From: Rotaria sp.
Lineage: Eukaryota
Length of the DNA: 64,000 bases
Reading direction: 5' to 3'
Assembly: GCA_905250055.1 (NCBI GenBank)
Contig: CAJNOF010000042.1
Location: 365,805 to 429,804, forward strand
Below the pieces are notes generated by a model, which had not been told where the DNA came from, ran no database searches, and saw nothing but the letters and a program-made list of their open reading frames with translations. Positions within the stretch are counted from its first letter, which is position 1. Every line of letters starts with the position of its first letter. Of this stretch, positions 11,501 through 53,838 are shown piece after piece. A program made the position numbers and the translations under genes.

Positions 11501-14139
11501 ACAAATATTCGACCATTTGCGCTGCGGTCTCTACCAAAGATGTACATCAATATTGGTAGATTATTCACAAAAATTTTCACACAATCCGCCATAAAATGAT
11601 CTGAGATCGATAAGGCGTGTTTTATCTTTTTTATCGTCATAAATTCCTAAAGATGTGTGCTTTGTAAATTTTTACTCATCTGGCAAGTAGAAAATGCTGT
11701 TTCAATGTTGAAAGCATTGACAACAGTTAAACACTACATAGTAGACTACTCAATTGACATGTGTTCTTGCATGAGGTGTATGAATAATTTTGAGCAAAAC
11801 TGAAAAACATCATTTTCCTTGCTTCTCATTTATAAGAAACAATTTTCAACGCATTTTGCTCAACGTTTCTGTGAATAGACTAGAGATACTGATTCCGATT
11901 TTCGTAAAAATCGCGACTTAAATGATTAAATAATTGTGAAAGCAGCACAATTTTACTATTATTCTCGGGTGTATGAATAATTTTAGCATCATTGCCTATG
12001 AAATGTATAATGTAATTAAAAACTTGTCAGTGCAGTTCTTGATGAAGTTAAAATATGGAGTTCACTCTCAATCAACATGGGATTACAAAAATGAGTTAGA
12101 ATGTGCATAAAAATCTTTCGAAAAGATAGGTCGGATGTGCATGTAACATTATTAAAAAACGATATGACTTCTATTTATGATTTATGAACCTGTGTCCTTG
12201 TCCCTGTTTACACTACTGAGATCGAACCATAGATAATCTCACTTTTGCTATTTTGGAGACATTTTCTCTATGTATCGTCTCTAAGAATTAGTGTTTTTTC
12301 AAATTATTCTTTGCTGAACGCTTTACAACATCTCTACCGAATGCTTTAATAAAAAGTGTAAAACTGAAAAAACATTGATTCTCAATAATGGAAAATGAAG
12401 AGAATCACATTAAAATACAAAAAAGTGATTTTATCTGTGACTCATCCATTGAATACTGTTGGAAAAATAATACGATGTGCTAGGCAAGCTAATTCTATTT
12501 TGTAGTACACTACAGCATGTAAAACAACTTCCCTTTGGAAACTTTTATTTTTCTGCACTATGATTTGACGCTATTCGTAATATTGAACAAATGAAATAGT
12601 TACCAATAGGATAGATTAGATGCCGATGCATCTTTGCCTAGGTTGAAAAAATAAAAATTATTAAGAAAATCCGAAGCATTGCTTAGTTTGAACCGTTCAT
12701 GATCGACTATTCATGACATGGTTTGCAATAATATGTAGAGATTGGCTTAGCAAAGTTCAAAGATAACTTATTGATTCATACATACCAATTATAACAATGG
12801 TAGTTGCTAATGTCGCGAGAAGTATACTACCAAAGAGAGTACCTATCAAACAAAAGCAACAAGTTCGCGTGATTTTGAATGTCCGATGATTCCTGCAGTA
12901 TAAGCAATTTCTGATTACAGAGAATCAGATGTGGAGACAAAAAAACTTACTTTTTATGTCTGTTTGATTTTCTTTTTCTGCTTGCGAATAGAGAGTCCTA
13001 TAATCAATACAATCTCATCATGATATCATAATTTATTACGCTTACTATTTGTTCTTGTGGTTGAACTTTATTTATGTTTGTTGTCGATATTGAATAATTA
13101 TGACTTTTTATTGTCTGAGCATCAACTGGCTATAATTAGATAGGACATACTATTCATGTAAGATGTTCTACCAACTAAAGATTACATTGCATGCTTTGTG
13201 AAGCTATTGCACTGAATTTTCATTTTTATTCAAATTGAAAATCAAAAATGATCTTGGTGGATAAGCGTTGGAAGCCTAACATATCATCTGATTTAGCTCA
13301 AGTATAAATCAGAAGGAAGATCAAGTGTTTCTTGATGTTGTCAATTTTTTTTTGTCTCAATCAGCAAAAAACCTCATAGAACCACTCACGTCGATTGTTA
13401 ACACGGCTATTTTAGTTTACATCTTCGAAACGAGTGCATCAAGATCTGACCGATTCAAACAATTGTGCTGGAATATCATTTAAGTGTAGGTAAAAATAGC
13501 ACTTACAGTAGAGCTGTACTCACAATCGCACCTGTCAGAATGTGATTCATGAATTTAGTGATCAAGAGTATTATTACAGATGTGTGAAGATGGGTCAATT
13601 TTCATGACACTCATACAAACACACACGAACATCTCACTTTAGAACGATTCCTACTTTGGCAAGTGACGCTTTGAGATAGATACTCTTGTAGTTCCAGTTG
13701 AAATCTAGTTCGTATTATGACTTATCTTTGTTGATCGCCGAAATATTAGAATTTTGATTTGTTTCTTTGAAAATAACTACGGAACCTTATAAAAATATTA
13801 ATCAGTTTATGATAAATGCATTAAATAAGCATTTTTGGAGCTCTCTTTCCAGTGAAAATTTGAAGCACGAATACACAAAGCTTAGGCGATTTTACGCAAT
13901 GATGAATTTTTTAGATCTACCATACCTTTTTTGTAGTTGATGTGCTGATGTTCCAGTGATGCATGCCCGATTGAATGTAATGCTAAAACATAAGATTTTA
14001 TTTTAAGATATTTTGATATAGGTTTCGACAGCACATACGATATGTCTATGTTTTTTTACACGGACCACTTTTCGTTTACGCGATACCATCTTTGGATTAA
14101 GAGTTACCTGCTTGTTCAGCTAGATTCCTACTTTGATGT

Positions 14140-14410
14140 CGAATATAAATGCAAGTTTCAAAAGTGATTAGCAATGCTAGTAGCAGAAAAAAAAATTCAA
14201 TTATAATTTGTAATTGAGAGATGACTGTCATATGGCTACGGCAGAAAGGCAGAAAAAAAAAATTTCTATTATAATTTATAATTGGCATACGGTCGTCACG
14301 TAACTACAGTAGCAAGGAAACATAATTGATTCGAATTATACTTGACAATTAAAATATGATTATCATATAATGATGGCAGAAAGTTAGACAAAAATAATTG
14401 TTTATGATTG
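14140..14410. repeat. Degenerate tandem repeat (minisatellite) of about 65 bp units.
   Basis: gcagaaaaaaaaattcaattataatttgtaattgagagatgactgtcatatggctacg followed by ggcagaaaggcagaaaaaaaaaatttctattataatttataattggcatacgg and a third, more diverged unit. There is no spacer structure, so it is not CRISPR-like. Confidence 0.4.
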
Positions 14411-16980
14411 TCACATTCGCGTTGGTATTCAAAAAATGGTAATGCAAACGTATTAGCTTTTTCTCAATACTAATGCTAACATGACGCTGCTAGTGGTAAT
14501 TACTGTGTACAAAGAGACATGTATTAGTCACAGTTCTTCTGGATAGGGGTTAGCGCTTAACGCTGCGACGCTTATATGAAAGGTCAGTTACAGAGATGGA
14601 CAAGTCAGAGATTTTTCGATTTCAAGTTAAAGCATTTTTTGAGAGATTCAAGTCACACGTTTTCAAATCAAATTTAATCAAAACTCAATTTGAAGTTTTT
14701 TTTTTTCAAGGATTCTATTCATTATTAAAAAAACAAGTTACCGTAGCTTTTATTCTGCAACAAAGACAATTGAATTTATAACAAAATTTCACAATAACGA
14801 AAAAAAAAATAACTGAAAAAAATCTATTCATGAATATCTTGACTTACGCTTACAAGAAGCATGAAAAATAACGGAGATCATTTGTAAACGAGATGGTCAA
14901 TACAAGTTGCGCAGATTATTTACTTATGGCAAAGTCGTCGGGTCTTTTTTTCATCTTTTAGTGTGTTTATAGAAATATTTGCTAATTTTTTTGAATATTT
15001 TTCTTTGACATTTCACATAAGGCGTAAAAGACAATGTGAGTAAGCATTCTCTACATATATAATCTGTTCAAAAATATAACAACAGACAATTTTCTAACGC
15101 TTTTATTATATGAGTATTATAGTCACATGTTACATTCCTTGACTCATCGATATTTGTTTATTCAGCTCGCATTCCTTGATGCTTTATTCTCTCTTATATA
15201 ATATTCTCTCTTCTCTCGCTTGAGTCAGTGATAGTTGTTAATTCCAAATAAAATCGAACTATAAGAAAGAAGCAAGAGGGGACCTCTGATAATGAGTTTA
15301 CTTTTTATTATTCCTAACAGTTATTTCTATATACATATATGCGTTCAGTTGCGCTCTATCCGAAACTGATGTTAGATATCCACATTCCGCACGCCAGACC
15401 TGAGAAAATGCATTTTTATAAAAGCTCGTACAATTTTAGGTGTACATTAAAAGTGTCAATCAAGCTCAGATTATTGGCTATTAAAACCAAAATCTATATA
15501 GGACTGCTTTTTCTATAATCTCACACCATAAAAGAGACTTTTTGCTACAAAATGAAAAGTCATCAAAACTTGAGAATCATTGTGTTAGAAAGAATGGTGC
15601 CATTTTTCCAATTTTAAATTCTGTACATCGGCAATTATAAGCAAAATTTGATACGAAAATTCTTATTTGTTATTAAATTGACATTTTCTTTCTAACAGAA
15701 TGATTCTCGGGCATCGAAGATTTTTCATTTTGTGACAAAAAGTGTCTTGTATGGTATGAAACTACAGAAAAAGCAGTTCCATATCTATGTTGGTTTTTAT
15801 AGCCAAAAATCTGAGCTAAACTGGCATTTTTTATGTATATCCAAAATTATATGAGTTTTTATAAAAATGCGTTTCCTCAGGGCAGACATACGAAATAAGG
15901 ACATCTGACTTCAGTTTAGAATAGAGTGCAATTGAATGCTTGTACTCATATGCATAAACAATTATCAATAAGAAAAAGTAAACTCATATATAATAAAAGT
16001 GCGAAAAAAAAAATGTCTGTTCTTATATTTTTCGTCACTACTGTATGTTTTTTTACTTGACTTGTCCCGTTCTGATTAGGTATTGCAGAGAAAAGTGTTT
16101 CTCCCGAGTAAACATTCAAGATGAGAATTTTGAGTTATGGAATGAAGAAAAAGAAAATGAGATATTTTCAAAAAGATTTAATTTTTTTCTTTTTTTGGTT
16201 CTAGTTACATGATAGCTTTATTTCAATTGTAAATTATAATTTGAATGAAATTTTTTTATTTGTGCTAGAGAAGTGTCAATTTATTTTTTTTCATTGATAT
16301 TCGAATTCATCTTACGTTGTCGAAGGCTCATTTATATTCAAATTCGAATGAGGCAACTCATGGTGTGTGTCGCAGTTTTGAACATATAAGGACTGGTAAA
16401 ATAAAATATTGATCAAGGCATAATTGTTTGAGAAAAGCAAGACTGATGCGATTCTATGTTTCAAGCAAACACAAAGCCTTCTTCAAATTCAATTTTCAGC
16501 TCACTGTAAGAATAAGAGAAATTGCAAAGATAACTTACAATGTCATTGCCATTGCATATTGATCAAGTATAGCTGCAATATGAATACGCTCCGAAAAAAA
16601 TCCTCAAAAAATGCATTTTGTTTTTCTTCGTGAATGACTAGTTGGTTGTTGTTTCACTGATTAAAGCTTCCCTCCTGAAAGAAAGCCAATTTTCGTAAAA
16701 AATAATGAAAACTAAGATAAATGCATGAGAAGATAGTATAATGTCTAATATTTCAAAAATGACATGTTCTTTTTTTTGGCATCCGCTTTTTTGTCAAAAC
16801 TTTTGATAATTACTGTCGCTTTCTGCTTGAAAAATAAGCTATTTTTTGCTTTTTCTCCTTTTATATATATATTTAATCGCATAACCCAGAATTTTCTTTA
16901 GGTTCTCATTCTATATATTTCTTTTTTTTTGGTTTGACAGAGCAGGTCAAGATGCAGTGCAGTCCAGAGTCATTTTTAAG

Positions 16981-17143
16981 GGTGTTGGTGTGGGTGGGGT
17001 GTGGGTGAGTGTGGGTGAGTGTAGGGTGTAGGTGTGGGTGTGGGTGGAGTGTGGGTGTAGGTGTGTGGTGTGGGTGTGGGGTGCGGGTGTGGGTGTGGAT
17101 GTCGTTGTTCATCTGCTGTTACTTTGGACCCACACCCACATCC
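16981..17143. repeat. Interstitial degenerate telomeric-repeat tract: about 120 bp of (TGTGGG)n-like G-strand, then a short inverted C-strand block (gacccacacccacatcc at 17127-17143).
   Basis: ggtgttggtgtgggtggggtgtgggtgagtgtgggtgagtgtagggtgtaggtgtgggtgtgggtggagtgtgggtgtaggtgtgtggtgtgggtgtggggtgcgggtgtgggtgtggatg. ORF 16906-17112 (HPHP/THT-rich) is just its translation. Confidence 0.75.
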
Positions 17144-17789
17144 TAACGAGTAACAATATAGTTACCCGTTGCTGGTAGTATAACGGTAATTTCTCTCCCT
17201 ACTCAGTATTTTGCATTTTTCCTCAGGAAAACTTTATCAAATCGAAAAAATAAGAACATATTCGTGATCAGCGTCAAAAGCTGAATCTAGTGATGTAAGT
17301 TTCAACTAAAAATAAACGTGCTCAAGTGTTGCATTACTGGCATCTTATTAAGGATATAAGATCTTTAAATCCACCTGATGAAGTCACCGCAAGACAGAAA
17401 CAATCGTTTGTCGTATAATGGGCTATTTCTACTCAACCTGACCATCACTATAGTCGTAGTACTTCTTAAACATAATACTCACCCTCATCGTCACAAGTTT
17501 TTGTCGTTTCTGAAGTTATCTACAGAAGTCAGATGAACCATGAGAAATGCATGTCGTTTTTCCAAATATAAAGTATCTCATTTTACTCAGAGTTTAATGT
17601 TAAGTACGAATATGTAATTCTTTTTGAAGAACATTTAGGGTGAAAAAATGACTTGAACCCTACTGGTCCTTTTATTTTCTATTTTCTTCAATTTATTTCT
17701 TGTTGAACAAATGAAAATTCACAAAATAAAAAACAAATTTTCATGTATCAATTTAAACCAATAATCTTAATTATGGACGTGCAATTTCA

Positions 17790-18880
17790 GTGGAAATACC
17801 GAAGCACTGACTACAGTGAAACGCTAATGGCACTAGAACTTCGATTTTTATTTTCATACATACATGGTGGCCCATAAATGACTTGACGATAAAAAATTTC
17901 AATATCTTCACGAAATGTCGATCGAATCAGATGAAGCTTTTTACTGATAGAAACTACTTTAAATTTTTCTCCATCTGATAATCGTCAACAAACAGGATGT
18001 TGAGGTAGCAGAATCCACCTCAAAACCTCTTTTTACCTGTTATTCGCTGTAAATGCTACAAAATGATTCATAGGCATCGCAGAGACTCTCCTTTCTACAT
18101 GCAAAGTCAGAAGATGCAAAGTCGTACTAATGCACAAGAATTATGGCCATATTTCATCGTATAAGATAAAGATACTGCTCATGCACAGCACGATATCATT
18201 ACAGAATGTTGAAAAATGACGACTGAAGTTTCATTGTATCGTTTGTCGCACTGCAATGATATATCCACTTGGAACATAAATTCTACACGTTTGTTTTTGG
18301 TTTTTAGGGAAGTTTTAGGCCTTATATTTTGTGACTAGGAAGAGATATAAATTTGAAATTTATAGAATTAATAGAGCTTTATGAGTTCTACCTACACTAA
18401 AAATTTCAGATTTATATCTCTTCTTAATCACGAGATATAAGGTCTAAAACTCTTCTAAAAACCAAAAAAAAACGTGCAGAACTTATGTTCCAAGCGCATA
18501 GTACTGTGCATGAGGAGTATCTTTATCTTATACGATGAAATATGACCACAAGTCTTGTACATTAGTATGACTTTGCATTTTCTGACTTTGCATGTAGAAA
18601 AGAGAGTCATTGTAATGCCTATGAAGCATTTTGTAGCATTTACAGCGAATAACAGGTAAAAAAGGCTTTTGAGATGGATTCTACTACCACAACATCCTGT
18701 TTGTTGACGATTATCATACGGGAAAAAATTTTAAAGTAGTCACTATCAGTAAAAAAACTTCATCTGATTCGGTCGACATTTGGTGCAGATATTGAAATTT
18801 CTTAACATCAAGTTATTTATGGGCCACCCTGTATTTATGTAAGTAAAAATCGGAGTTTCAGTGCGATTAGTGTAGTCCTT
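17790..18880. mobile_element. Large near-perfect palindrome / foldback element (about 1.09 kb, arms about 500 bp, symmetry centre about 18385).
   Basis: Left arm ...gatgttgaggtagcagaatccacctcaaaacctctttttacctgttattcgctgtaaatgctacaaaatgattcataggcatcgcagagactctcctttctacatgcaaagtcagaagatgcaaagtcgtactaatgcac... has its reverse complement at 18480-18700 (...gtacattagtatgactttgcattttctgactttgcatgtagaaaagagagtc..gcattttgtagcatttacagcgaataacaggtaaaaa..ggattctactaccacaacatc). Outer arms are tggtggcccataaatgacttgacgat (left) and tcaagttatttatgggccaccctg (right). Confidence 0.6.
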
Positions 18881-18946
18881 TAGTTAGTGTACCGCTATCT
18901 GAAACGTTGGTGGACACTTAACTGAAACTGCGCATCTATAATTTTA

Positions 18947-19915
18947 ATTGTTATTGATTTCAAATTTAAGAATTCGACCAAAAGCAGAATCGGCAACATA
19001 AAGATTGCCTTTTTGATCAAATGCTAAACCTGTAGGTTCAGCTAATGGTTTGGATAGGTTTCCTCCACAGTTTATACCAATAACATCAGTTCCTTCTTTT
19101 TCTCCTTCAATCTAACCCATCACATGACCCCTTCCGGTTGCCACATAGATTTGACCCAACTGATCGACAACAACTCCTCGAGGATTAGGCAATCCTTTTA
19201 AACTTATTCTCATATGCTTCCCACCAGCAACAACAATTCCTTCTTTTGCATCTTTTGTCCATTTTATTACACGATGATTGCCACTATCTGATACATACAA
19301 TGAATTATCTGGATCAACGAAGATAAAAGTAGGATTATTGAGTTGATTGAGATCATTTCCATTTTCATTTCCACCCGCTACGACTGTTCCATTTTCCTCT
19401 CCTATTTTCCATCGTTTAACTTCATTCTTCTCCGTATCAGAGACATAAAGATATCCATCATTATCCATTGCTAATCCATAACAATCAATATCCGAAATAA
19501 TTATTTGTCCATTGGTATTATTTTGACGAGGCCATTGCATCACTCGCCTGTTTATTTGATCAGAAATGATAAAAGAATCATTTTGTTTATCAATAATTAC
19601 ATCTGTTGGCCAACTCAATTGATTCAATTCACTGCCTTCTTGATTTCCACCTGCAACAATTTGCCCAGTGTTTGAATTAGATTTCCATGCAACGATACGG
19701 TGATTACCACTATCAGCAATATAAATCGTTTGATCATCATCAAGACATAAGCCTAAAGGATGAGCTAGCTGATTTAGTTCATCGTCTGTATCAAGAGAAA
19801 AATTTCCTCCAGCAACAGTAATTCCATCTTTGTTCCATTTTGTATCTAAATGAAAATTAAATTGTTGAAAAGAAAAGATATTCTTCAAAATAAATTGACC
19901 ACGACGGTTAAACAA
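18947..19915 (-). CDS. NHL-repeat (six-bladed beta-propeller) protein, intronless; the ORF is interrupted by an in-frame TAG at 19112-19114 with a further NHL blade encoded downstream (18947-19111).
   Basis: ORF 19112-19915 contains repeated NHL signatures (..YIADSGNHRIVAWK.., ..YVSDTEKNEVKRWK.., ..YVSDSGNHRVIKWT.., ..IYVATGRGHVMG*). Reading on in the same frame past the TAG gives IEGEKEGTDVIGINCGGNLSKPLAEPTGLAFDQKGNLYVADSAFGRILKFEINNN*, another complete NHL blade. No GT..AG intron of plausible length removes the stop. Confidence 0.7.
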
Positions 19916-22900
19916 ACATTTTATTTTATTAAAAGAGAAAATGAATAAACATTTGAGATAAAAATTAAATTTTGAACCTTTTTTAAATATACAAAAGAAT
20001 ATTTTTTATTTCGATGTCATTTTAAAATCTAACAAATCTTTTAGAGATACTTATTTAATTATTTTCTAAAACAATTTTTATTTTCAATTAAAATATTTAA
20101 GAATAAATTATTTTATTTTTTTTAATTAAAATAGAAATAATCTTTACTTTATTTCCAAAGTTTAATCAAGCTAATAATGTCCAACATAGATCAACTTTTT
20201 ATGAGTCGACTCCAAGTGGAAAGCGTTTTTATTGATTTCACCCGATCCAAGTCAGACACTGGGATCCAATACTTATATATTCACTTTTAAACTTGAGATT
20301 TTTCAAATTTAGTTTGTTTTATCTCAATTATGGTATTAAAATATGTGAAAAATTAATCATCAATATCAAGTATTACATCTGGAGTCATTCATAAAGAGCG
20401 TACAGATATAAAAAAGCATTTTTCTGATCCCCTCCCCTCCGTCCAGGAATGTCTGTTTTTAAATTACGTTGCTGTACGTTAAAGTACTTTTGACGTCATT
20501 TTATCATACTTTGGAGTACTTAATGTCTATTGTTTTTCCTTGACTTTTATAAGTTACATAAAATTGTTTTTCTCATGTTCATGACATGCACATATATCAA
20601 GATGTGTTTATATTATAGAAATTTATTGCAGAAGAAGTTCATGTGGAGGAACAAAAAAACGTGCAACTGTATGGGATCTGCACTTTGAAAATGCTACTAG
20701 AAACCGATTTTACTTGAAATTTTCGCGAAAAATGTCTGAAAAACAGTAAAAAGTCATAGTAAGCGTCTGAATATCCAGATATGCTTGACACTTCCTCCTT
20801 CCCAGAAGTGTGCGTTTTTCACGGATCACCGATTCTTTGACTTGGCATTCTTTCTGGATAGTTTCCTATTTTTTACTTAATGGTAAAAATATGTGATAAT
20901 GAAGATAGAAATAACCAATATAATAACTGAAAAGATTTGTAAATTTTGACACATTAATTCTGAACTTGTATCTCTACCTAAGAATAAAAAAAAGTGTTTT
21001 TTTTATTCTTATAACTACATCATTATTTAGGAGAATAGTCATAAAAAATCAATCTGAGATATGAAAATATTCCGAAATTATTTTTGAATAACTTATTCAT
21101 GGTTTTCTTCCGATTATAATAAATGAAGATTTGTTATCGTTCTAAATCAAATAATATAATAGAGTACACCTCAATTGATTTTTACCTTTTTTTACTTCTT
21201 TTATTTGTTATTCCTATATTTCTTTTGATTATTAATCGGTTATGTATAGGGAAGAAACTCGAAACGCGCTGCATCTTGTAGTGTATGAGTGAATTGCAAC
21301 TATTTGGTACAATTGTGTTTTTGACGTTTTTCTGTTATAACTTCGATTCCTATCGTCCAATTAAGAATTTTTTTTTTCTTTTCTTTCTTTCTACTTGTTC
21401 AAACAATTCTGAAGTTTTCAGATCCATAGTACATAACCCTGTTGAGACATACACGTCGAAAGCTGGAAAAACTCACTTTTGTGAAACACGATTGAAAAGA
21501 AGTGTTGAAGTATAAGGATAGAAAAAGCTAACCCCCTACTCTGCCCCACTGACCGTGGCAGATACAGGATCATCAAGTACTTGTCAGTCATTATTTGTTT
21601 TTTTTTCCTATTTTCCTGTTATTTCTCTCTTCTCTTTTGATTGATCACTTTCGCGCCTTTTTTTTTGAATTTCGTTTTATAGTACGTTTCTTGAGAATTA
21701 GATATTTAATCAAAGAATTTCTGTGAAGATTCTACTTCGGTGCTTCATCATATAATGTCATTACTAACTGTACAACCTTAGATAAAGAAAGTGAGGACTC
21801 AAGCAATGTCATACATCTTTAGACACAATTTATCATGCTTGTTTATTATGATAAATCAAATCTATTGATACAGCTATTCTTCAGGTTCCATAGCTTCATC
21901 GTGTTTCACATTATTATCCTGAAGAGATTGCGCTAACAGCTCTTTTGATGAAACATCGTAATAAGAATGAGTTTCATAAAGAAGGTAAGAAATAAAAAGA
22001 AAATCTCTACAGCACTTTTTGTTCAGCATTCAATAGGCTATTTAATTCTATCATTCACTAGTGCAATTCCTTTTTTCTTCCTGATCCTTTATTATTAAAT
22101 TCCTTTTGCGTACACAGTGTAAGATGATATTGGATTGAGTGTGGAGTGCACAGGTACAGACTCTTTTAGGACACTGAATGTTCCATTAGAAACTGCACCG
22201 AATTTACTCTAAAATACATGTTCAAATCCTGTAATAATTTTCTTTAGCAGATCAAAAAAAAAATGAAAACTAAATTTATCACTGACTTTGTCGGCTGAAA
22301 TTTTCGAACCTGAGAAGCCTGTACCTCTTGAATGATTCGTCCGATTCTGATGAAACTTATATACAAGATAAACTACAAAAAGTTGCATAACTAGAAAAAA
22401 TTTCATTATTCAGCCATGCTTTGTTCTAAAAAAATTTACATTTTACGGCAAAATGTAGGGCAAGATTTGCTTTTGAAAATTTTCGGTTATTTCACGGTAA
22501 AGTTATTAGTACTATACACTGTTCTATTCACGGTAGCAAACTTAATACATTTGCATATTTCTCGACATATTATAACACTACTGACCAAAGCTGAAGTAAA
22601 GAGATTTATCTAACAACCCTTCTTTTTAGAGCCCCTTAATGACACTGTTAAGCTATTTCTTGTGCGTGACTATGCGAATGCACTGTTTGTTGCAACCATT
22701 AGAGTGAGTATGCTGTATAATATGTGAGTCTTTGTACCGATTCCAAGACCTTTTTCTTCAAACTCCTCGCGGATAAAAAAACAACCAAAATGTACACTTG
22801 AATATCTTCGCCAGTAAGCGGCTATTTATTGGGAAATTTTTACAGAATACTCAGATAATGGTGAAGAGAAAAATGCACAAATCAAATTTTCTCTAAGCCA

Positions 22901-23049
22901 ACTTTCAATTTTTTTCGTTAAATGTTCAAAAAAGTCACGATCCACTTATTTTTATGTTGAACAACAACTGTAGCTTAACCCGTTGACGGGCGATGGTACA
23001 TTTAGGTGCCACTTTTTTTCTTTTTGTTATCTCTCCTCCCTCAGCCTCA

Positions 23050-23545
23050 CCCGTCCAGAATTTGCTCGTCAAACAGTTAAAGTATAAAAAGTGCTTTAGA
23101 AAAATTAGTGACATTTTCTAATACAATAAAAGTATCTTTGGAATAATTTTTGATAAAAATAAAATCGAGATTTGCGCTTTTCACCGTTCGAAAGAAGAGA
23201 TGAATCTGCATCGAATCATATAACTCAGATTCTTCTGACAAGATTTTCCATAGTATTCAGTCAAGTGTTTTAGAAGAACGGTGCGTTAGAGAGAAGAAGT
23301 GAATTTTTGTTTAAAAAATACGAAAAAACGTCGATTTTTCTAAGAACCTTCACTGAATACTCTGAAAAAGCTTGTCAATATAAAGTAAAATGTATGATTC
23401 GATGCAGATTCATCTTTTCTTCTGAATGATGAGAATCGCAGATCTCTATTTTATTTTTATGAAAAGTTATTCGAAAAATACTTTTATTGCAGCAAAACAA
23501 AAATGTCACTATTACTTCAAACTTTAGTTGTTGTTCAACACAAAT
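23050..23545. repeat. Imperfect inverted-repeat / foldback element (arms about 200 bp).
   Basis: gatgaatctgcatcgaatcata (23200-23221) pairs with tatgattcgatgcagattcatc (23396-23417). The outer arm gtcaaacagttaaagtataaaaagtgctttagaaaaattagtgacattttc pairs with gaaaaatacttttattgcagcaaaacaaaaatgtcactattacttcaaactttag. Confidence 0.4.
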
Positions 23546-23581
23546 ATATCATAAGATGCAGCGCGTTTCTGGCTTTCTTCT

Positions 23582-23606
23582 TATATATATATATATATAT
23601 ATATAG
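23582..23606. repeat. (TA)n microsatellite
   Basis: tatatatatatatatatatatata. Confidence 0.8.
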
Positions 23607-24133
23607 CAGAATACTAAACAAACGAAATATAGTAAGAGAAAACAAATAGATGAAAAGCAATCGAGGTGTAATGTATAAGAATATTTACCGTTTGATGAAA
23701 ATCGATAAAATATCCAACTATCGTTTGTACCTTTTATTTTATATAATAATATTGTTTACTTGTTTCTAAAATATAACTTGCTTTTTCTTTCGTTAACACA
23801 TGGTAAATCTACCTTTATTTTTCTTCTCTTCTGTATTTTTCTTTTCATGGACACAAAAATATAAAAAATAAAACATTCAAGGTGAGGAATATATATATAT
23901 GTATATATGTATAATACGTAATTGCAGCATCAGAGAGCGAAAACGAATCGAACCGCAGCGATATATAAAAAGCAAAGATGAACTGCAGACAAGCCCCACA
24001 TAAAAAATAATTGATTGAATTATAAGCGAATTTGAAAAAAGTGTGACGTAGTCGGTAAAGATGATATATGACACGGTTAGTCTCTGTTGAACTCATTTAA
24101 AAGACCTACACCCATCATCAGTAATCTAATTTA

Positions 24134-24367
24134 ATGCTAACATGGGAATGGGGTACGGATATTATACTCATCCGTCACCCTCATTCTCAAACAATACCAC
24201 ATCCACCATTTTCACCATATCTTTCACCATGTGACTTTTGGTTAAATGATTACATCAAGAACAATTTGACTGATCAAGCAAACGAAAAATCGCTAGTTCA
24301 GGCGATTACCAAGATAGTGAAGAATATTCCAGAAGAAGAATTTAAAAAGCTTTCGACAAATTGTTAG
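24134..24367 (+). pseudogene. Mariner/Tc1-like transposase C-terminal fragment (relic).
   Basis: The ORF translates ..HPHSQTIPHPPFSPYLSPCDFWLNDYIKNNL.., matching the conserved mariner/Tc1 C-terminal block HPPYSPDLAP(S/C)D(Y/F)xLF. No intact upstream DDE region or TIRs were found. Confidence 0.45.
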
Positions 24368-24510
24368 CCAGGATGGAACTGTGTATAAATAATAATGGTG
24401 ACTATTTTGAGCATTTGATAAAATAAAACTAAAAATATCTCTTGCTTTTTATATTTTTATTTGATCTTATCAGAACTTTTTGTCAGCCCTATAAGCATCA
24501 TCTTCAAGGA

Positions 24511-24533
24511 ATAAATAAATAAATAAATAAATT
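24511..24533. repeat. (AAAT)n microsatellite
   Basis: ataaataaataaataaataaatt. Confidence 0.8.
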
Positions 24534-25160
24534 TTCCTTTGAATGAGAAAATGAATAAAATATACTATTAATTTCTAATTGTAAATTTTGTTGAGCAAAT
24601 ATATTTAATATTTGACGAACAGAAGTTAACATTTGACAAAGATCATTTTGATTTCCACTATATAAAATATGAACAAATGGATTCGATCTTATTTCATTAT
24701 TATAATCAAGATTTGCTATTAGAGAAATAATATTATTCATATCTACTATAACATGACAAATTTCATTCAGTTGTACAATCAAAGGAGGGGGTCGTTTTCT
24801 GGGCAAATCGGCCCTCTAATCGAAGGGCTTTTTTCTCATTTAAAACGGTCACTTTTAACATCCTGAACTCAGGATCTTGAGGGTGTGTGGTCATTCAATT
24901 TACTAACACACCAAGATGAAGGAGAACCTCTTATAGTGTATTATTGGAAGTTACTCTTAACTTTTCGGTAATAGTATAGTATGATTATTATTAGCTTGGA
25001 AATTTTTCTCGAAAAACGTTCAACTAAAGTAATTCATAGTAGAAGAGTTATTATTAACATCCTTTAATCATAAGCAATTGATAAGTGATTACTTTAGCAG
25101 TAATCGAAACGCCTCTTGCTAGCTTTTGATTTGATTGAGTAATCATTCAATTTACTAATA

Positions 25161-25180
25161 CACCCACATCCACACCCTAC
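25161..25180. repeat. Short telomere-like C-strand fragment (cacccacatccacaccctac), about 1 kb from the 3' end of the S9 peptidase gene.
   Basis: Seen in sequence. Next to a duplicated 22-nt motif tcattcaatttactaa(c/t)acacc (24893 and 25141). Confidence 0.4.
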
Positions 25181-26185
25181 ATGATCAATGAGTTAACTTA
25201 TCTATTGAATGTGCTGATACATTATACTGTTATTCATATACACTATAATAGACTATAATAAAGCTGATATAGATGTATGAATATTTTATGCTGATGTTTT
25301 TTTCGTCTGATGATGGTATCTGAGAAATAGATACCGAAATAACACGTTTATGATTTATGTCAAAAAATTTTAGCTGTTTTTAATTTTTATATTGTGTTTC
25401 ATCTTACATAATTGTCCCATATTTCACTTTTAATACACACATTTACTTGAAGATCTTGTTTGTATCAAACTCCTCATTCAAGAGCATTCTCTGATTGGCT
25501 ATTTTGATGTGCAATCAATTTGTGTAGTTAAACAGTTGAAAGTCCATGAGATGAAAATAGCTTCGAATTCTCACTTTACTCTTATACTTCATGGAATACG
25601 AGAACATCTCGTTTTCTTGTTGACGTTTCGGCTTCCATCAGGTTTTTCTACGACCAAACTCGTACATAAACATCAAAACAGTTATTAATCTTATATTATC
25701 TATTTCAGGAATGTAATTCATATTAATCGGCTTGTTCTGTTGAAATCTGTACATACTAACAACGACAATTAAATGCTGGTAGTATTATTGATTTCATTTT
25801 ATCCAAATCCCTACCAAAAAATTAATTTTATTATTAAATGCAACAAAATATTAAATATTTCGCTGGAATAATTGAAAGTTTTTATTATATCTCTACTTAG
25901 AGAATGATCTGAATGGAGTTCATTTGCCAGCAGAGAATAACTGAGATTTTCTTTTTCTCTCTGATCAAAATACTGTCGCTAAATTGTCATCAAACTTCAA
26001 CGTAATAAGCACTGCTCTCGCAGTTTTTTTCACTTACATTTGATTACTAGCATGTGCCATGTCAAACGTTCCTTTTTACCATCTATTATTATTTTTTTTA
26101 TATCAAATCAACTATTTGAAACGTCATTTTATTAGTGCTTCTTATTCTAGAAAAAGCGTATCCCATTTCAATGCACTTTTCAAAT

Positions 26186-28297: not shown

Positions 28298-29457
28298 CCT
28301 AAAGTAATAAGAAGATATGTACCGTTTTGGATGAATTTTTATGGGTTGTATCAGATAAAGGTTTCATGCGAACTGAAGAATCATACGAGACGATTTAGAA
28401 CGAACTTTTTATATCTATAACATAGAAAAAACAAGGAATGAAAAAAGAATTTTACTCAGCTTAAGTAGTGTTTGCCTTCTTAGGACACTCCATCTTGATT
28501 GTTTATTGAAAATTAAACTTATGTGTTATTGAGATAGCAAAATGAGTTATAATTTTACTTGTTGAACAAAAGAGTTCAAAAATGAATACATTCAAACAAC
28601 AAGGAAAACTAACTTCTGTCTCACATCAAATGCTTTCATTCAAGGGACTAACTTCATAATATTCATGCGTTATCTATTCCGGCTCAGTCCTTTTGATCCA
28701 TTCTGTTGTTCCCAAATTGAATACAACAAACGATAACTTAATGATGCCTTAAACTGACGTTTATTGTCAAGCAAGGTGTGTCATGAAATGTTGTTTTTAA
28801 AAGGTTTTTCTCAACAATTCACGGTACAAGAGACGAGGTACTCTGCCAATAGCTCAAGTGTTCATATTGAAAAATAAGGAAATATTGAGAACAAAATAAA
28901 GCCTACACATACCCTTATTCTGCAAGATATTAGTATGTCTTAGTTTTGTGAACTGCAGATATTTATGTCCATGAAGTTTTATAATCCTACCCTTGAAACA
29001 TGGCGAACACACCTGTACGTATATGTGACACCTTTCGAATAGATTAAAGATAAAAGTATATACATTCGTTGCTGCAGTGAACTTTTTCTTACTTTTTGAT
29101 TTTATATGTTGTCCTGTTATTGTGTTCTCTCGACAAAAAGACATGACATTTTTTTTGTGATCAAGTAAACGAGAGACCAAAATGGTGATTATATCAACAG
29201 CTTTTATTGAATGTGCTAGTCTCACATTGGTATGATACTTGAATACATAGCCTTTTAAATATAATTGCTTTTCAAACGACAATTTAACATCAAGACTATA
29301 ATCTTATATATGATTATATCATAAAAAAGCCTTTTATGTCTGCACAAGATTAGCTCAGAAAGACTTATTGATTTGAAACTTTTCGTCATGCTACTAATCA
29401 ATGCAAGAAAATTTTGACAATCTGGACCTAAAATTTGGATATGCGTGCAGAGAAAAC

Positions 29458-29475
29458 CCACACTCACACCCACCA
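29458..29475. repeat. Short telomere-like C-strand fragment (cccacactcacacccacc) about 1.2 kb from the 5' end of the S9 peptidase gene.
   Basis: Seen in sequence. Confidence 0.35.
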
Positions 29476-29705: not shown

Positions 29706-30294
29706 AACTATTGTCGAATTTTTAAAAAAAAAGCCAGCCACCATTTTTTGAATAACTCTTCACCATTGATAGCTATCGTGTTCAGGTTTTAACCATTTGA
29801 TAGAGCGGCGCGGGGGGGGGGGGGCGGGGGGATGCTTTTTTTTTTAAACAAATTGTTTAAGGAACATATTTAATTGCTAAGAGTTTTCGTTACCAATTTC
29901 ATTAGTTTTCATAGAGACCTAGGCTTGAATTACACCAAAATGTAGCTCGGAGGGTACTGTATCTGTGATAAACTTTTCAGCTCTTTCTGTCATTGTCTCG
30001 AATACGATAGTTCGTTAAAATTCTGAGAATTTAATCCAAATTCCGGACTCTCCAAGCTAAATTTTAGTGTAATTTAAGCCTAAGTCTCAACGAAAACTAA
30101 TGAAATTGATAACGAAAACTCTTAGCAATTAAATATGTACTATAAAAAACTTCTTTGGTCCTAGTGAGTCTCATATAGATAGACGCCCCTCGTGCCGCTC
30201 TATCGAATGGCTAAAACCTGAACTCGATAGCTATCAATGGTAAAGAGTTATTCAAAAAATGATGGCTGGCATTTAAAAAAAAATTCCACAATAG
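29706..30294. mobile_element. Foldback / MITE-like element, copy B of the family at 7814-8399 (roughly 90% similar over the terminal arms by eye); contains a G15CG6 homopolymer tract at 29803-29830.
   Basis: The termini ctattgtcgaatttttaaaaaaaaagccagccaccattttttgaataactcttcaccattgatagctatcg ... cgatagctatcaatggtaaagagttattcaaaaaatgatggctggcatttaaaaaaaaattccacaatag match copy A, and the interior is likewise palindromic. Confidence 0.65.
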
Positions 30295-33200
30295 TTTCTG
30301 TCTATTTGAAGGATTTTCAATATATAATCGGAGCTTGTCGAATTCTTCTCGTCTATCAGTGATAACAATTGGTTTTGAAAATTATTCGAACATCAATCTG
30401 TTTTTCTTTCTCTCGATCATATTCGACAAGAAATTTCTTTGAAGGTCTTTCTTACAAACATTCCTAGAAACATCATTTAAAAAATCGAAATTGATACAGT
30501 TCAATGTTTGTTGAAAACTATTAAAGAAAATCAAATTTTGGAACGTGAAAAAAAAGAGTAGAGTTTGATTAATATTCATGTAAAAATTATTTTTTACGAA
30601 AATTGTTGATCATCACTGATTGTTTTCGTTCAAGAGTTTTTGAGCAAAACTTCACGATCGTAATAATTTCACTGATTCGTTCGGTAAGAATAACAAAAGT
30701 ATATCAGTAAAGCCAATCAATATCTTTTGATATATTCCTGTTTAATCTTATGACTATCTTGCTTAAATCGATCAATACTAAACTCAATGGTTGTCATTGG
30801 GGGTCAAGCGAAATCCAAGGTTCGACCACCTCAGTCCATAAAAATAATTGAATGACTGTTGCATGTTGTTCAACGATTAATCATTGTTTCATATCGCCTA
30901 TTGTTAGCAGCAATCAATAAAGAAAAGAAAAACCGGAAAGTTGGAAATTTGCGCGAGTTGAGCATTATGTCAGAAAAATGGATTAGCTGTGAAAAAGTCA
31001 ACATTTTGTGTTTAAAAGCCGTTCAAAACAATTTAAACACACATATTGTGAATTGCACAGAGAATCTCCTCGAGTGAATCATTTTTCGTAGTGTGTCAAG
31101 CGTTCGCGTTTGATCCTTTTATCAAATAAACATGAAAATCAGTTTCTTTCCCTTTCACATCTCGTGCCTTACTGTTCCATTTTGATATTTATAAGATCTT
31201 ATGTACTACTTCAATGTAATTTTTAGTTAGGAAAGGATTAGTTGGCGGTGCATTTATACGACTCCTCTTATAAGGAAGAAAGCTAGCTCAGTCGATTGTT
31301 CCAGATGATTGTTTGAGTTTAAGACTAATACGAGTGCTAATTTAATCATGGAAAATTTAAAAATTATCTTCGCAATACTCGTCAATACAGATTCATGTTT
31401 GCTTTTTAGCGTTCAAAGACAACCTCATGTTTGCCGAAGTGATTTGATGGGTATTGGGGTTATGCGTCCCTTGTGCAGAAAGCAAATTTTATACATCAAG
31501 TAGTGTTTTTTCAACAAGACTTATGCTTTTTATGTATATAGAAGAACTGATTGTTGTTTATAGAATGAATTGCTGATCTTGGTCAAGACTTATTTGCTTG
31601 ATTTTGACCAGACAAGATATTCTGAGAAAATCTAAGACAAAATGTAGAAACAATGTCTCGATGTTTGGACGATTGATCTTCAAGAAAACTATCTCGTACG
31701 ATACATATGAAAAGTGACAATTCTTTTATGACATTGGTCTTCATCTTAAAAATATTTCAATATCAATTGATCAATACTTTTGAGATTATCTATTGATTAG
31801 AACGAATCAAAATGTTTTCTGGATCATTTTGAAACATTGAAAACCGTTCATCGTCTGACTAAATTACATTATCCAGTAATGTCAATTCTATTCGATGAAA
31901 TTCAAAACAACTCCACATGTCGAATCGATTTCTCTGTGATTGAACAAAAACTTTCGAACACTCTTTTCATCGACGATCGATTATTTCGAGTGTGATATTC
32001 ACGTCGGTGACTGTAAGAATACGATGAGCAAAAGCATTTAGAACTACCATCATTTTCATGAAGAATTCTCGTGTTTAGATTGAATGTTATTTCCAATAGC
32101 GTGCTACTCTAGTGCCCACTTAGTAGCATGATTTATCGCTCTGTTTCCGACTGAGGAATCCATGTGCAAAGCTTTCGATGAAAATAAGATCTATTCTTTT
32201 CGATTATCAATACCACAAGAGAATATCCTAGAAATTGATGCGATTCCATTTGCTTTTGCTGTTGAATTATCCGACAAGCAACATGAGTTGAATCTACTAA
32301 GATAAATAGGATAAGAACGCTCACATAAGTCGGTAATTACTCGACGTAGAACTTATCAAAAGAGAAAACGACAATTTTAATTACATGTGTATGAGATTTT
32401 GAATCAAAACTCATTCAAAATAAATGTTGAATGTTAAAGTCAACGAAAAATTTTCAAGACGATTTTCATCTGTGAAATTGGTCCGTTCTAAAATTATCGA
32501 GAAAATTCTTGCTTCATCAAGAAAAGACTCAAAAGAAATGAATACATTCAAGAAAGTAAAAAAAACATCGCTATGAAATTGTACCCTTGTTTTCAAAGTC
32601 CAATTTAATCTCGATAACTAGTTTATTGATAATTCTTTTATTTCCTTTTGTAAGAACTCATAATTGTCTAAGCAAATCAGAATATGAGCCGATGTGAATA
32701 TGACACATCGCTTCAAACAAAAACACCTTTCTGATATTGGTCATCTCATGCTATCTGTGGCCAGTTTGTGTCGATAATACTTTCTATACTAGCATTCGTA
32801 AACCGATTACTTGATATTTTATCCTTCACAAGCAGCCATAATCTATGACTGACAACACAACTTCGTCGTCTACTCTTCAGCAGAACTGTTCATCACTTTA
32901 TACTGCTGTCTATTCATCTTCAGCTAAAGCTACTAAGATTGTAAATAAATACATTCGGGTTAGACTCGTTTGAATAGTAATATTACATATAAATTCCTCA
33001 TTAATTCTTCACGGCTAGTGCATAGACTTCTTCCACTTCAAGTTTGCATTAGCTTAGCAATCTATGTGTTTATTTATGTTTTTTTTGTTTCCATCCGTTC
33101 TCTCTGAATTTGATGCATTTGATTTGATTTATGAATTTATTTCAATTGAGAAGTGAGAACCAATTAATGGTGACAGTGCGCTTCGTGTTACTAATAGAAT

Positions 33201-34242
33201 TTCTTCACATGACCCACACCCAAAAATCATGAATGAAGCATTCTCTTTTCGCATTATTTTCAATATGTGTTGAGCCTTGAATCCTTTTTCGTTCTTTCTC
33301 CATGAAACAAGTCTTTTGACATAATTAACTCATGCAGCACTAATTTAAACATCGCAAATCTTTATTGGATGAGAGAATGATTGAAAAGCGGTCAACACAG
33401 TCTCCTATTCTTTGGTGTTGACAAAGCTTCTTTATTCATATTTTTAAACAATAAGAAATGTCTATATAAACTTTCGTCTAATAATAATGTCTCATCGAAG
33501 AGAGAATATTTCAATTTCATTGGATCTCTTTCATCATGCCAAAGCGATCTTAAACTTTAATAAATATAATATGGTTCGAATTATTCATGTTGTCCATGTT
33601 CGAAAAAGAGCTTCATTGCGGGGCAATCTAAGGTACTTATAAATTGAAATATATTATCGAAGTGTTACAGTACTCTGAAGTATTGCTTTACAAATAGCAT
33701 CGTCATTTCAATGTTACGCGTTTTATTAATGATAGTTTCAAATTGAGACGTATATTGAGCTATAATTCTTGTTTCCTTGTGTCTGCGTAGAAATTGAAAG
33801 TATGCCAATTTGAATAAAATAATTTTTATAACACGCGTAATTATTAATTGAACTTGTCAGAATAATATTGGATTACAATTAATAAACAAGCTCTGCAAAA
33901 ATCACGATTTCACTTCTAAGGAAAATTGGCAGCTAATTCAAGTCATAAGTGGTTCGAAAAGAACTACACTCTTCTTCTCTTTTTAAGGTTTTATTGAATT
34001 AATTTTTTATTCAATTTTCTACAAGGTTATATGAAACTATTTTTTTTGCAATATACCAATAGAAAAATCCGTACGATATTTTGAAAGAAATGAAAACCTT
34101 GAAAATATAGAATTATATAAGACTTCCGATTTTTGGGTAATGCGAAAAAATAGAAAGATGTCTGAACAAATTTTCGAATATATTTCTCGATCATATATAG
34201 CCTTGAAAGATATCAATTTCTCTAAAGTTAGTCGAAATCAGT

Positions 34243-53379: not shown

Positions 53380-53838
53380 GCTATTGGGTATGGCCAGCTA
53401 ACTCTGCTACCGGAGTGAAATTCCGTAACGTTTTTCGCTTATTTTGTTTTCTCGATAAATATCAGGCAGTAGCACATGAAGAGTTGCGAGACGTCTTAAA
53501 TTAAAGAGACAAGTCTTGTACATATTTTAAGATATTTTTCGCTTTTGGAACATTTGTCGTTTCCAAGATATAACAAAAGAATTGAACACCACTTTTGAAA
53601 AAGTAATAATTTTCAGAATTGAAAAGTAGTTATCAGTTTTTTAATTATATTTTGGAAACGACAAACGTTCCAAAAGCGAAAAATATCTTAGAATATGTAC
53701 AAGACTTTTCTCTTTAATTTAAGACGTCTCGCAACTCTTTACGTGCTACTGCCTGATATTTATTGAGGAAACAAAATAAGCGAAAAACGTTACGGAATTT
53801 CACTCCGGTAGCAGAGTTAGCTGGCCATACCCTATTGT
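53380..53838. mobile_element. Foldback / palindromic MITE-like element (about 460 bp, arms about 200 bp).
   Basis: The left arm ctattgggtatggccagctaactctgctaccggagtgaaattccgtaacgtttttcgcttattttgtt..cagtagcacatgaagagttgcgagacgtcttaaattaaagagacaagtcttgtacatattttaagatatttttcgcttttggaac is reverse-complemented at 53640-53838 (..gttccaaaagcgaaaaatatcttagaatatgtacaagacttttctctttaatttaagacgtctcgcaactctttacgtgctactg..ggtagcagagttagctggccataccctattg). Confidence 0.55.

What the first reader, a model, noticed from the sequence alone, without database searches (positions are those of the whole stretch)
16981..17143. Interstitial telomeric-repeat tract with inverted C-strand cap, plus a palindromic mini-tract at 5123-5221
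About 120 bp of degenerate TGTGGG-type repeats sit internally, followed 25 bp later by an inverted cccacacccacatcc block. At 5123-5221 a smaller G-strand/C-strand pair forms a perfect hairpin with flanking arms. Internal telomeric repeats are signatures of ancient chromosome healing, telomeric retroelement (Athena-like) insertion, or fold-back breakage/fusion. The degeneracy (GTGAGT, GTAGGG variants) argues for age. They lie next to the foreign-looking genes and the 1.09-kb palindrome.
Basis: partly seen in the sequence, partly recalled or inferred. Interest (0 to 1): 0.55.

Follow-up and report, generated by a model that had tools for sequence, protein, structure and literature searches.

The report
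Fossil telomere junction in a rotifer
A 123-bp run of the bdelloid rotifer's own telomere repeat lies inside a chromosome, facing a short inverted telomere block; it most likely marks where a DNA end broken at the centre of a palindromic mobile element was capped by telomerase and later joined to another capped end.

Summary
The window comes from the bdelloid rotifer Rotaria sp. Silwood1, whose telomere repeat is (TGTGGG)n. The tract at 16980-17102 has about 20 units. It is followed by a 25-nt non-telomeric spacer and an inverted 16-nt block at 17128-17143. The structure is present in both haplotypes and in 8 of 9 assembled copies (two length alleles, about 122 and 68 bp), so it is not an artefact.

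No Athena/Penelope reverse transcriptase or hammerhead ribozyme lies nearby. The left flank (16679-16979) is one arm of a fold-back (palindromic) element, cut at the base of its loop. The telomere repeats start exactly there.

Conserved gene order with Rotaria sp. Silwood2 and R. sordida covers only about 5367-16660, the block between the two telomeric loci in the finding.

Across 145 kb of Rotaria sequence I found 9 "G-tract, spacer, C-block" pairs (0.01 expected). All 9 are head-to-head and none is tail-to-tail. That is the geometry expected when two telomerase-extended 3' ends are joined.

Best reading: a break, telomerase healing, then end joining. This is a known kind of feature (an interstitial telomeric sequence). 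The recurrent head-to-head pattern may not have been described before. The "perfect hairpin" at 5123-5221 is imperfect.

The parts
16679..16979 (+). Truncated single arm of a fold-back (palindromic) element. It ends at ...GAGTCATTTTTAA, at the inner end of the arm (base of the loop). The loop and second arm are missing.
   Evidence: It aligns with a Silwood1 paralogue (L015 19848-20125, 64%) and with both arms of a palindrome in Silwood2 (L013 arms 19555-19661 / 19778-19884, 107 nt, 84% complementary, 116-nt loop). Both of those copies continue past the point where the window copy stops. Conserved order with Silwood2 and R. sordida ends at about 16630-16660, just before this arm starts.
16980..17102 (+). 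G-strand telomeric tract, about 20 irregular TGTGGG units, with its 3' end pointing right.
   Evidence: Two length alleles in the population, identical borders.
17103..17127 (.). Non-telomeric spacer (filler) between the two opposed telomeric arms: TCGTTGTTCATCTGCTGTTACTTTGG.
   Evidence: Identical in all alleles. The spacers of the other head-to-head pairs share no sequence with it.
17128..17143 (-). Short telomeric block with its G strand on the minus strand (GGATGTGGGTGTGGGT). It abuts the unique right flank at 17144 and beyond.
5132..5161 (+). Degenerate G-strand arm of the first mini junction.
   Evidence: The allele reads GGATGTGGGTGTGGA.
5182..5203 (-). Telomeric block with its G strand on the minus strand (GGATGTGGGTGTGGGTGT). 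It is the partner of 5132-5161. The same 16-mer occurs at 17128-17143.
5331..5343 (+). Weak G-strand arm of a second mini junction.
   Evidence: The allele reads TGGGTTTGGGTGT.
5357..5377 (-). Degenerate telomeric block with its G strand on the minus strand. It sits exactly where homology with R. sordida begins and is also present there (L021 11270-11282).
25160..25177 (-). Solitary short telomeric block (GGGTGTGGATGTGGGTGT on the minus strand), 0.65 kb beyond the end of the conserved block that holds the S9 peptidase gene.
29456..29473 (-). Solitary short telomeric block. Degenerate copies lie at the orthologous position in R. sordida and Silwood2, so it is old.

Best explanation
The tract is a fossil neotelomere inside a head-to-head junction, the scar of a break, healing and joining sequence.

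Proposed steps:
1. A fold-back (palindromic) transposable element had inserted at about 16660-16680 in the Silwood1 lineage.
2. It broke at its centre. Palindromes extrude hairpins that are cut at the loop (inferred).
3. Telomerase extended the exposed 3' end of the plus strand with irregular TGTGGG repeats. This is the tract that starts directly after ...CATTTTTAA.
4. A second DNA end, the sequence now at 17144 and beyond, had received a short seed of about 3 repeats on the 3' end of its minus strand.
5. The two capped ends were ligated by end joining, with a 25-nt filler between them.

The mini-tracts at 5132-5203 and 5331-5377 are smaller junctions of the same kind at the other end of the same roughly 11.6-kb block. 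That block therefore looks like a fragment with outward-facing telomere caps at both ends that was stitched to new neighbours.

Shown: the identity of the repeat, the truncation of the palindrome arm at the tract, the head-to-head geometry and its 9:0 bias, the coincidence with breaks in conserved gene order, and presence in both haplotypes.

Inferred: hairpin cleavage, telomerase as the enzyme that added the repeats, end joining, and the order of events.
For: 1. The repeat is the host telomere repeat. The organism was identified by an exact protein match, and (TGTGGG)n is reported as the bdelloid telomere repeat.

2. The left flank, 16679-16979, is one arm of a fold-back element family. Other copies continue into a loop and a second arm. 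The window copy stops within a few bp of the arm's inner end, and the repeats begin there.

3. Polarity is as predicted. The G strand is on the plus strand next to the left fragment and on the minus strand next to the right fragment.

4. In 145 kb of non-allelic Rotaria sequence there are 9 pairs of opposed telomeric blocks within 80 nt, against 0.01 expected. All 9 are head-to-head and none is tail-to-tail. Joining two ends that were extended at their 3' termini can only give head-to-head pairs.

5. Conserved order with Silwood2 and R. sordida spans only about 5367/5564 to about 16630-16660, between the two telomeric loci. The left limit is exactly the block at 5357-5377. A head-to-head pair in R. 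sordida (L022 12415-12478) sits exactly at a sordida-specific break in conserved order.

6. Spacers differ between pairs and share no motif, as expected for filler DNA.

7. Neotelomere addition at break points, leaving scars, has been proposed for Adineta vaga (PMC13564844). Short telomeric stretches are reported as typical of bdelloid subtelomeric clones (PMC2861651).
Against: - No orthologous "empty" or unbroken site could be aligned for the main tract. The three species all differ beyond about 16660, so the state before the break is not observed.
- The right flank (17144-17795) has no relative in the data held, so its origin as a separate end is inferred only.
- The block at 5357-5377 is shared with R. 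sordida. At least that junction therefore predates the Silwood1-specific rearrangement, and the left side needs more than one event.
- The mini-tract also has 8-bp non-telomeric inverted arms (ATTTCGAG / CTCGAAAT) that the model does not explain.
- Some of the 9 pairs rest on 12-mers with 2 mismatches. One of them, 36013-36045, is probably coding sequence.
- The sample is small and was chosen around this locus.
Confidence: 0.6

Rival explanations
1. Athena/Terminon-type terminal retrotransposition. The short (ACACCC)n blocks would be 3' ends of endonuclease-deficient Penelope-like elements that annealed to a G-overhang. The long tract would be the telomere they attached to.
For: The organism group and repeat are the same. 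Athena 3' ends carry short reverse-complement telomeric stretches next to hammerhead ribozymes (PMC8557442). All six short strict blocks in the window have the same orientation. The region is rich in transposable elements.
Against: No Pfam domain at E <= 1 in six frames of 15301-18900. No RT-like ORF in 8.4-26.2 kb. No hammerhead at Rfam gathering thresholds over 64 kb, or at E <= 10 around either locus. Attachment by annealing gives repeats in one orientation, not an inverted block behind a 25-nt spacer. Only ordinary genes (NHL, S9 peptidase) were identified in the segments between blocks, and no retroelement domain.
Confidence: 0.08
2. In-place scar of a single two-ended break. Both ends of one break received telomeric seeds and were re-joined to each other, so no rearrangement took place.
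For: This also predicts head-to-head geometry with filler. It resembles the insertion of short interstitial telomeric sequences at breaks in vertebrates (PMC7215372, PMC8537989).
Against: The loop and second arm of the fold-back element are missing, and the right flank is unrelated to that family. Conserved order with two sister species stops on the left of the junction and does not resume on the right within the 16630-25787 tested.
Confidence: 0.12
3. Relic of an ancient end-to-end fusion of two whole chromosomes, like human 2q13.
For: Head-to-head arrays flanked on both sides by sequence rich in transposable elements and foreign-looking genes. A hotspot of horizontally transferred genes with interstitial telomeric repeats in A. 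vaga was read this way (PMC8494291).
Against: At least three such junctions lie within 12 kb, and more lie in neighbouring loci of sister species. One arm is only 16 nt. The left side is a cut transposable element, not a subtelomere. The event is specific to the Silwood1 lineage.
Confidence: 0.07
4. Not telomere-derived: a GT-rich microsatellite or satellite, or an assembly artefact.
For: The tract is irregular (75% matches).
Against: The unit equals the host telomere repeat. The opposed perfect 13-mer and the six-fold excess of telomere-like blocks are far beyond chance. The tract is present in 8 assemblies and 2 haplotypes. No other copy of the flanks carries it.
Confidence: 0.03

Closest known systems
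Short interstitial telomeric sequences inserted during double-strand-break repair (vertebrates; PMC7215372, PMC8537989)
   Same: Telomerase-type repeats at an internal unique site. Length is polymorphic. They are associated with a break. They have no coding function.
   Different: Here there are two opposed arms with a filler, not a one-orientation insert. No empty orthologous site could be shown. No flanking piece of telomerase RNA is evident, because the spacers share no sequence.
Fusion-type head-to-head interstitial telomeric sequence (human 2q13)
   Same: G-strand arrays whose 3' ends face each other. The repeats are degenerate.
   Different: Scale and number: arms of 12-123 nt, several junctions within 12 kb, and a cut transposable element on one side. 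These are local rearrangement joints, not a change of karyotype.
Telomeric repeats associated with Athena/Terminon retroelements in bdelloid subtelomeres (Gladyshev & Arkhipova 2007; Arkhipova et al. 2017, as cited in PMC8557442 and PMC5537684)
   Same: Same clade and same repeat. Short (ACACCC)n stretches are scattered among transposable elements and foreign-looking genes.
   Different: No reverse transcriptase and no hammerhead ribozyme were found. The orientation is inverted rather than uniform.
Neotelomere formation at break points in Adineta vaga (PMC13564844) and chromosome healing in ciliates and nematodes
   Same: Telomere repeats are added directly to a non-telomeric broken end. That paper proposes that transient caps are later removed or joined, leaving scars.
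   Different: That work observed the repeats in clipped reads of laboratory lines. Here the event is fixed, shared by both haplotypes, and seen in a wild-derived genome at the centre of a palindromic element.

Membership tests
Interstitial telomeric sequence (ITS) | The repeat unit is that of the host's telomere | tested here: met
   The host is Rotaria sp. Silwood1. The bdelloid telomere repeat is (TGTGGG)n. The tract consensus is GGGTGT x20.
Interstitial telomeric sequence (ITS) | Internal, non-terminal position with unique flanks | tested here: met
   At least 319 kb from either end of a 1.54-Mb contig. The flanks are the same in 8 assembled copies.
Fusion-type (head-to-head) ITS | Two arrays in opposite orientation with the G-strand 3' ends facing each other | tested here: met
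   The G tract is on the plus strand at 16980-17102. The G block is on the minus strand at 17128-17143.
Fusion-type (head-to-head) ITS | The two flanks derive from two different former DNA ends | tested here: inconclusive
   The left flank is a cut fold-back arm. Conserved order does not resume on the right. The origin of the right flank could not be traced.
Short ITS inserted at a repaired break | An orthologous or allelic empty site in which the two flanks are adjacent | tested here: not met
   Both haplotypes carry the tract. Silwood2 and R. sordida are not alignable beyond about 16660.
Athena/Terminon (endonuclease-deficient Penelope-like element) | A Penelope-like reverse transcriptase ORF adjoining the repeats | tested here: not met
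   No Pfam hit at E <= 1 in six frames of 15301-18900. None was seen among ORFs of at least 50 aa in 8.4-26.2 kb or among the tested long ORFs. No Athena protein was available for a direct tblastn.
Athena/Terminon (endonuclease-deficient Penelope-like element) | A hammerhead ribozyme motif next to a short (ACACCC)n at the 3' end | tested here: not met
   No Rfam hit at gathering thresholds over the whole window. No hammerhead at E <= 10 in 16300-18000 or 4300-6000.
Chromosome healing / neotelomere | Telomere repeats begin directly at the truncation point of a sequence that continues in other copies | tested here: met
   The fold-back arm is cut at 16979. Paralogues L015 and L013 continue beyond that point.
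Chromosome healing / neotelomere | The repeats were added by telomerase | not testable with these tools
   Inferred from the polarity of the repeats and their identity with the host telomere repeat.

The most novel reading that the evidence does not exclude
Head-to-head pairs of short telomeric seeds, separated by 9-72 nt of filler, may be the general footprint of a "break, telomerase cap, end-join" pathway. That pathway would reshuffle, and perhaps assemble, the regions of bdelloid genomes that are rich in transposable elements and foreign genes. Fold-back (palindromic) elements would act as the fragile sites where breaks start. If so, every such pair is a datable record of a past double-strand break. 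The blocks between pairs, here an 11.6-kb LamG block with outward-facing caps, would be former free linear fragments.
Probability: 0.35. Interest if true: 0.75.

Novelty: new variant of a known kind. Interest (0 to 1): 0.5.

Why it matters
Bdelloid rotifers survive massive chromosome breakage and carry unusually many foreign genes. How broken ends are handled, and how new DNA becomes joined to chromosomes, remain open questions.

This locus gives a base-pair-level example from a natural genome of three things:
- a break at the centre of a palindromic element;
- telomere repeats added directly to that break;
- the capped end later joined head-to-head to another capped end.

Junctions of the same kind recur at breaks in conserved gene order in three species. 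If that holds genome-wide, these junctions would be a simple sequence signature for mapping past breaks and mis-joins. They would also allow a test of whether foreign genes enter through capped fragments. The tract itself, as an interstitial telomeric repeat in a bdelloid, is an expected kind of feature.

Tried and rejected
1. Yeast TG1-3 / Rap1-site reading. This was my first impression from the sequence. I rejected it once an exact protein match placed the window in Rotaria sp. Silwood1 and few long ORFs were found.

2. Structural heterozygosity, or a 13.2-kb insertion at 4450-17609 that is absent from L001. I rejected this. The L001 junction is a single N. Other odd joins in L001, L005, L007 and L009 coincide with N runs. 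The same assembly holds the segment on another scaffold (L018). All N-free contigs (L011, L016, L017, L019, L020) are collinear with the window.

3. Homology between the two telomeric loci. There is none beyond the shared 16-mer ACCCACACCCACATCC.

4. A common spacer derived from telomerase RNA read-through. The spacers of seven pairs share no motif.

5. A templated origin of the main spacer. The only lead is a 13-nt match to 7419-7431 on the minus strand, which is marginal.

6. Hairpin function of the main tract. Its fold is no better than shuffles (z = -1.0). The Rfam microRNA-like hits are far below threshold.

7. The two key papers (Gladyshev & Arkhipova 2007, PMC1890498; Arkhipova et al. 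2017, PMC5850863) are not held in the library. I therefore could not check whether inverted telomeric pairs were already described there.

8. A Pfam scan of the mariner-like ORF at 24125-24364 gave no hit.

Full report
**What is there**

The plus strand at 16980-17102 carries about 20 irregular units of GGGTGT/TGTGGG. Tandem Repeats Finder reports period 6, 75% matches and 11% indels. After 25 nt of unrelated sequence comes ACCCACACCCACATCC (17128-17143), a perfect reverse complement of tract units. TGTGGGTGTGGG with at most one mismatch occurs 13 times in the window, against 0.02 expected.

A scan in all six phases finds the long G tract on the plus strand. It also finds six short blocks, all with the G strand on the minus strand: 5183-5201, 5358-5369, 17127-17143, 25160-25177, 29456-29473 and 33211-33224. 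Only 0.23 blocks are expected by chance.

The mini-tract named in the finding is a real pair of opposed arms, 5132-5161 and 5182-5203. It folds as an imperfect hairpin, not a perfect one: arms 74-93% complementary, -21 kcal/mol, z = -4.0. A weaker third pair lies at 5331-5343 / 5357-5377.

**Whose DNA it is**

A 479-aa ORF of the window is identical to proteins of Rotaria sp. Silwood1, a bdelloid rotifer. Published work gives (TGTGGG)n as the bdelloid telomere repeat. It is found at the ends of all Adineta vaga chromosome scaffolds and is used as the telomeric hexamer across Rotaria (PMC8494291, PMC7943196). These are true interstitial telomeric repeats.

**Not an artefact, and not heterozygous in presence**

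Using the neighbouring NHL-repeat and LamG proteins I fetched 20 Silwood1 loci from eight assemblies.

- The tract, spacer and C-block occur with identical borders in 8 of 9 loci that cover the site, including both haplotype contigs of the 10x assembly. Those haplotypes are about 97.4% identical.
- There are two length alleles, about 122 and about 68 bp.
- The one locus without the tract (L001) joins window 4449 to 17610 across a single N. Other odd joins also coincide with N runs. The same assembly carries the "missing" 13 kb on another scaffold. All N-free contigs are collinear with the window. I therefore reject structural heterozygosity.

**No retroelement**

- The 12 kb to the left and the 2 kb to the right of the tract have no ORF with a recognisable domain.
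- A six-frame Pfam scan of 15301-18900 gives nothing at E <= 1.
- The tested long ORFs in 1-35 kb of the window that have a Pfam match are ART, LamG, NHL and S9 peptidase; five others gave no hit.
- Rfam finds no hammerhead ribozyme, either at gathering thresholds over 64 kb or at E <= 10 around both loci.
- Athena elements are described as carrying short (ACACCC)n next to a hammerhead at their 3' end and attaching to G-overhangs (PMC8557442). That mechanism yields repeats in one orientation, not an inverted block behind a spacer.

**What the left flank is**

Window 16679-16979 has diverged relatives. One is a Silwood1 paralogue (L015 19848-20125). The others are both arms of a palindrome in Silwood2 (L013 arms 19555-19661 and 19778-19884, 107 nt, 84% complementary, 116-nt loop). 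In those copies the sequence continues into a loop and a second arm. In the window it stops at ...GAGTCATTTTTAA, within a few bases of the inner end of the arm, and the telomere repeats begin there.

This is the classical signature of healing: a sequence cut short and capped directly by telomere repeats. The cut lies at the centre of a fold-back element, where hairpin or cruciform cleavage would be expected. That last step is inference.

**Comparison with sister species**

- The orthologous LamG locus of Silwood2 (L012, L014) and R. sordida (L021) is collinear with the window only from 5564 (Silwood2) or 5367 (R. sordida) to about 16630-16660.
- On the right, homology ends just where the fold-back arm begins. 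Beyond that point all three species differ.
- On the left, homology with R. sordida begins exactly at the block 5357-5377, which R. sordida also carries (L021 11270-11282). R. sordida and Silwood2 share the flank beyond it, while Silwood1 does not.
- The block between the two telomeric loci of the finding is therefore a unit. Its neighbours were exchanged in the Silwood1 lineage. It has a C-strand block at its left end and a G-strand tract at its right end, which are outward-facing caps.
- Around the S9 peptidase gene, conserved order again ends near telomeric blocks. A head-to-head pair in R. sordida (L022 12415-12478) sits exactly at a sordida-specific break point.
- The block at 29456-29473 is conserved in degenerate form in both sister species and so is old. 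The block at 33211-33224 is not conserved and may be chance.

**A recurrent geometry**

I scanned 145 kb of non-allelic sequence (the window, L012, L021, L022 and L024) with a looser criterion.

| Feature | Observed | Expected from shuffles |
|---|---|---|
| Telomere-like blocks | 48 | 7.3 |
| Head-to-head pairs of opposed blocks within 80 nt | 9 | 0.01 |
| Tail-to-tail pairs within 80 nt | 0 | 0.02 |

Clear examples besides the window are:
- R. sordida L022 13455-13536 (G arm 44 nt, spacer 16 nt, C arm 19 nt);
- Silwood2 L012 20681-20743;
- Silwood2 L012 4182-4221.

The spacers share no sequence. Because telomerase extends only 3' ends, joining two extended ends must give head-to-head pairs and can never give tail-to-tail pairs. 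This explains the 9:0 bias without further assumptions.

**Most likely history (confidence about 0.6)**

1. A fold-back element inserted at about 16660-16680 in the Silwood1 lineage.
2. It broke at its centre.
3. Telomerase capped the left end with the tract.
4. Another end, 17144 and beyond, had received a seed of about three repeats.
5. End joining sealed the two caps with a 25-nt filler.
6. Slippage later produced the two length alleles.

The event post-dates the split from Silwood2 and R. sordida. It pre-dates the divergence of the two haplotypes, which share most variant units.

The variant TGTGGA recurs in independent blocks of three species. The irregularity is therefore probably in large part how the repeats were made, not only decay. 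"Degenerate, therefore ancient" is thus only partly right.

The model agrees with the proposal that A. vaga forms transient neotelomeres at breaks that leave scars (PMC13564844). It also agrees with the report that short telomeric stretches are typical of bdelloid subtelomeric clones (PMC2861651).

**Weak points**

- The state before the break is not observed.
- The origin of the right flank is unknown.
- The left side needs at least two events, because one block is shared with R. sordida.
- The 8-bp non-telomeric inverted arms of the mini-tract are unexplained.
- Some of the nine pairs are weak matches.
- The loci were chosen around this window.
- I could not read the two primary Athena/Terminon papers. 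I therefore cannot say whether inverted pairs have already been described.

**Verdict**

This is a genuine interstitial telomeric sequence, which is a known kind of feature and expected in a bdelloid. Its informative anatomy is a healed break at the centre of a palindromic element, joined head-to-head to a second capped end. It is one of several such joints at break points in conserved order. Athena involvement is not supported. Interest is moderate (0.5). It would be higher if the head-to-head signature proves general.

Noticed in passing
window 7811-8389, 15329-15951, 17796-18898, 23124-23489, 29729-30297, 40331-40862, 53383-53835: Seven fold-back (palindromic) elements lie in 64 kb, with arms of 127-400 nt that are 78-92% complementary. 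The elements at 7811-8389 and 29729-30297 are two copies of one family, with a partial third copy at 52531-52714. Such a high density of potential hairpin-forming sites is relevant to the breakage model.
   Followed up: partly
L001 17132 and 4210-4309; L005 2911 and 4086-4153; L007 4632-4731; L009 (five single Ns): Several public Silwood1 scaffolds join contigs across single Ns or runs of about 70-100 Ns. These joins create false deletions or misplacements, for example the loss of window 4450-17609 and a 1.17-kb contig equal to window 4397-5571 placed next to 30580. In L009, 221-bp duplicated overlaps flank at least three of the five single-N joins.
   Followed up: yes
L022 13455-13536 and 12415-12478 (R. 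sordida); L012 20681-20743 and 4182-4221 (Rotaria sp. Silwood2): Further head-to-head telomeric pairs with 10-33 nt spacers occur in sister species. One of them lies exactly at a lineage-specific break point in conserved order.
   Followed up: partly
window 14118-16375: A 2.26-kb stretch, including the palindrome 15329-15951, is absent from R. sordida, where L021 2173 and 2167 are adjacent. It is probably a Silwood1-lineage transposable-element insertion inside the conserved block.
   Followed up: no
window 5127-5137 and 5211-5221: Non-telomeric inverted arms (ATTTCGAG... / ...CTCGAAAT) flank the mini head-to-head pair. The simple end-joining model does not explain them. They may point to a fold-back intermediate or a small palindromic target.
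   Followed up: no
window 17112-17124 and 7419-7431 (minus strand): A 13-nt exact match (TGCTGTTACTTTG) links the filler of the main junction to a site 10 kb away. It is marginally unexpected (about 0.04 expected) and could be a templated insertion.
   Followed up: no
window 50044-51185 (+): Adjacent ORFs encode an FHA domain (E = 3e-5) and two PBZ zinc fingers (E = 2e-23). This is the architecture of the end-joining accessory factor APLF. A DNA-repair gene lies 33 kb from the junction, probably by coincidence.
   Followed up: partly
window 10784-10802 (+): A solitary short G-strand block is also present in the other haplotype (TGTGGATGTGGGTGTG) and at the corresponding position in Silwood2 (L012 7196-7214). 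It is an older internal telomeric relic inside the conserved block.
   Followed up: partly
window 24125-24364 (+): An 80-aa ORF resembles the C-terminal part of a mariner/Tc1 transposase by eye (...PYLSPCDFWL...). There was no Pfam hit at E <= 0.01, so this is unconfirmed.
   Followed up: partly
L017 18363-20726 and L018 17526-20726: To the left of window position 1, beyond a run of about 100 Ns in each locus (L017 17654-17753, L018 15129-15221), a scaffold of the other haplotype and a scaffold of another assembly show a DUF4371 / zf-C17orf113 (transposase-like) gene. Other copies (L010, L019) show a TylF-like methyltransferase there. This is either a haplotype-specific insertion of a transposable element or a scaffolding artefact.
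   Followed up: no
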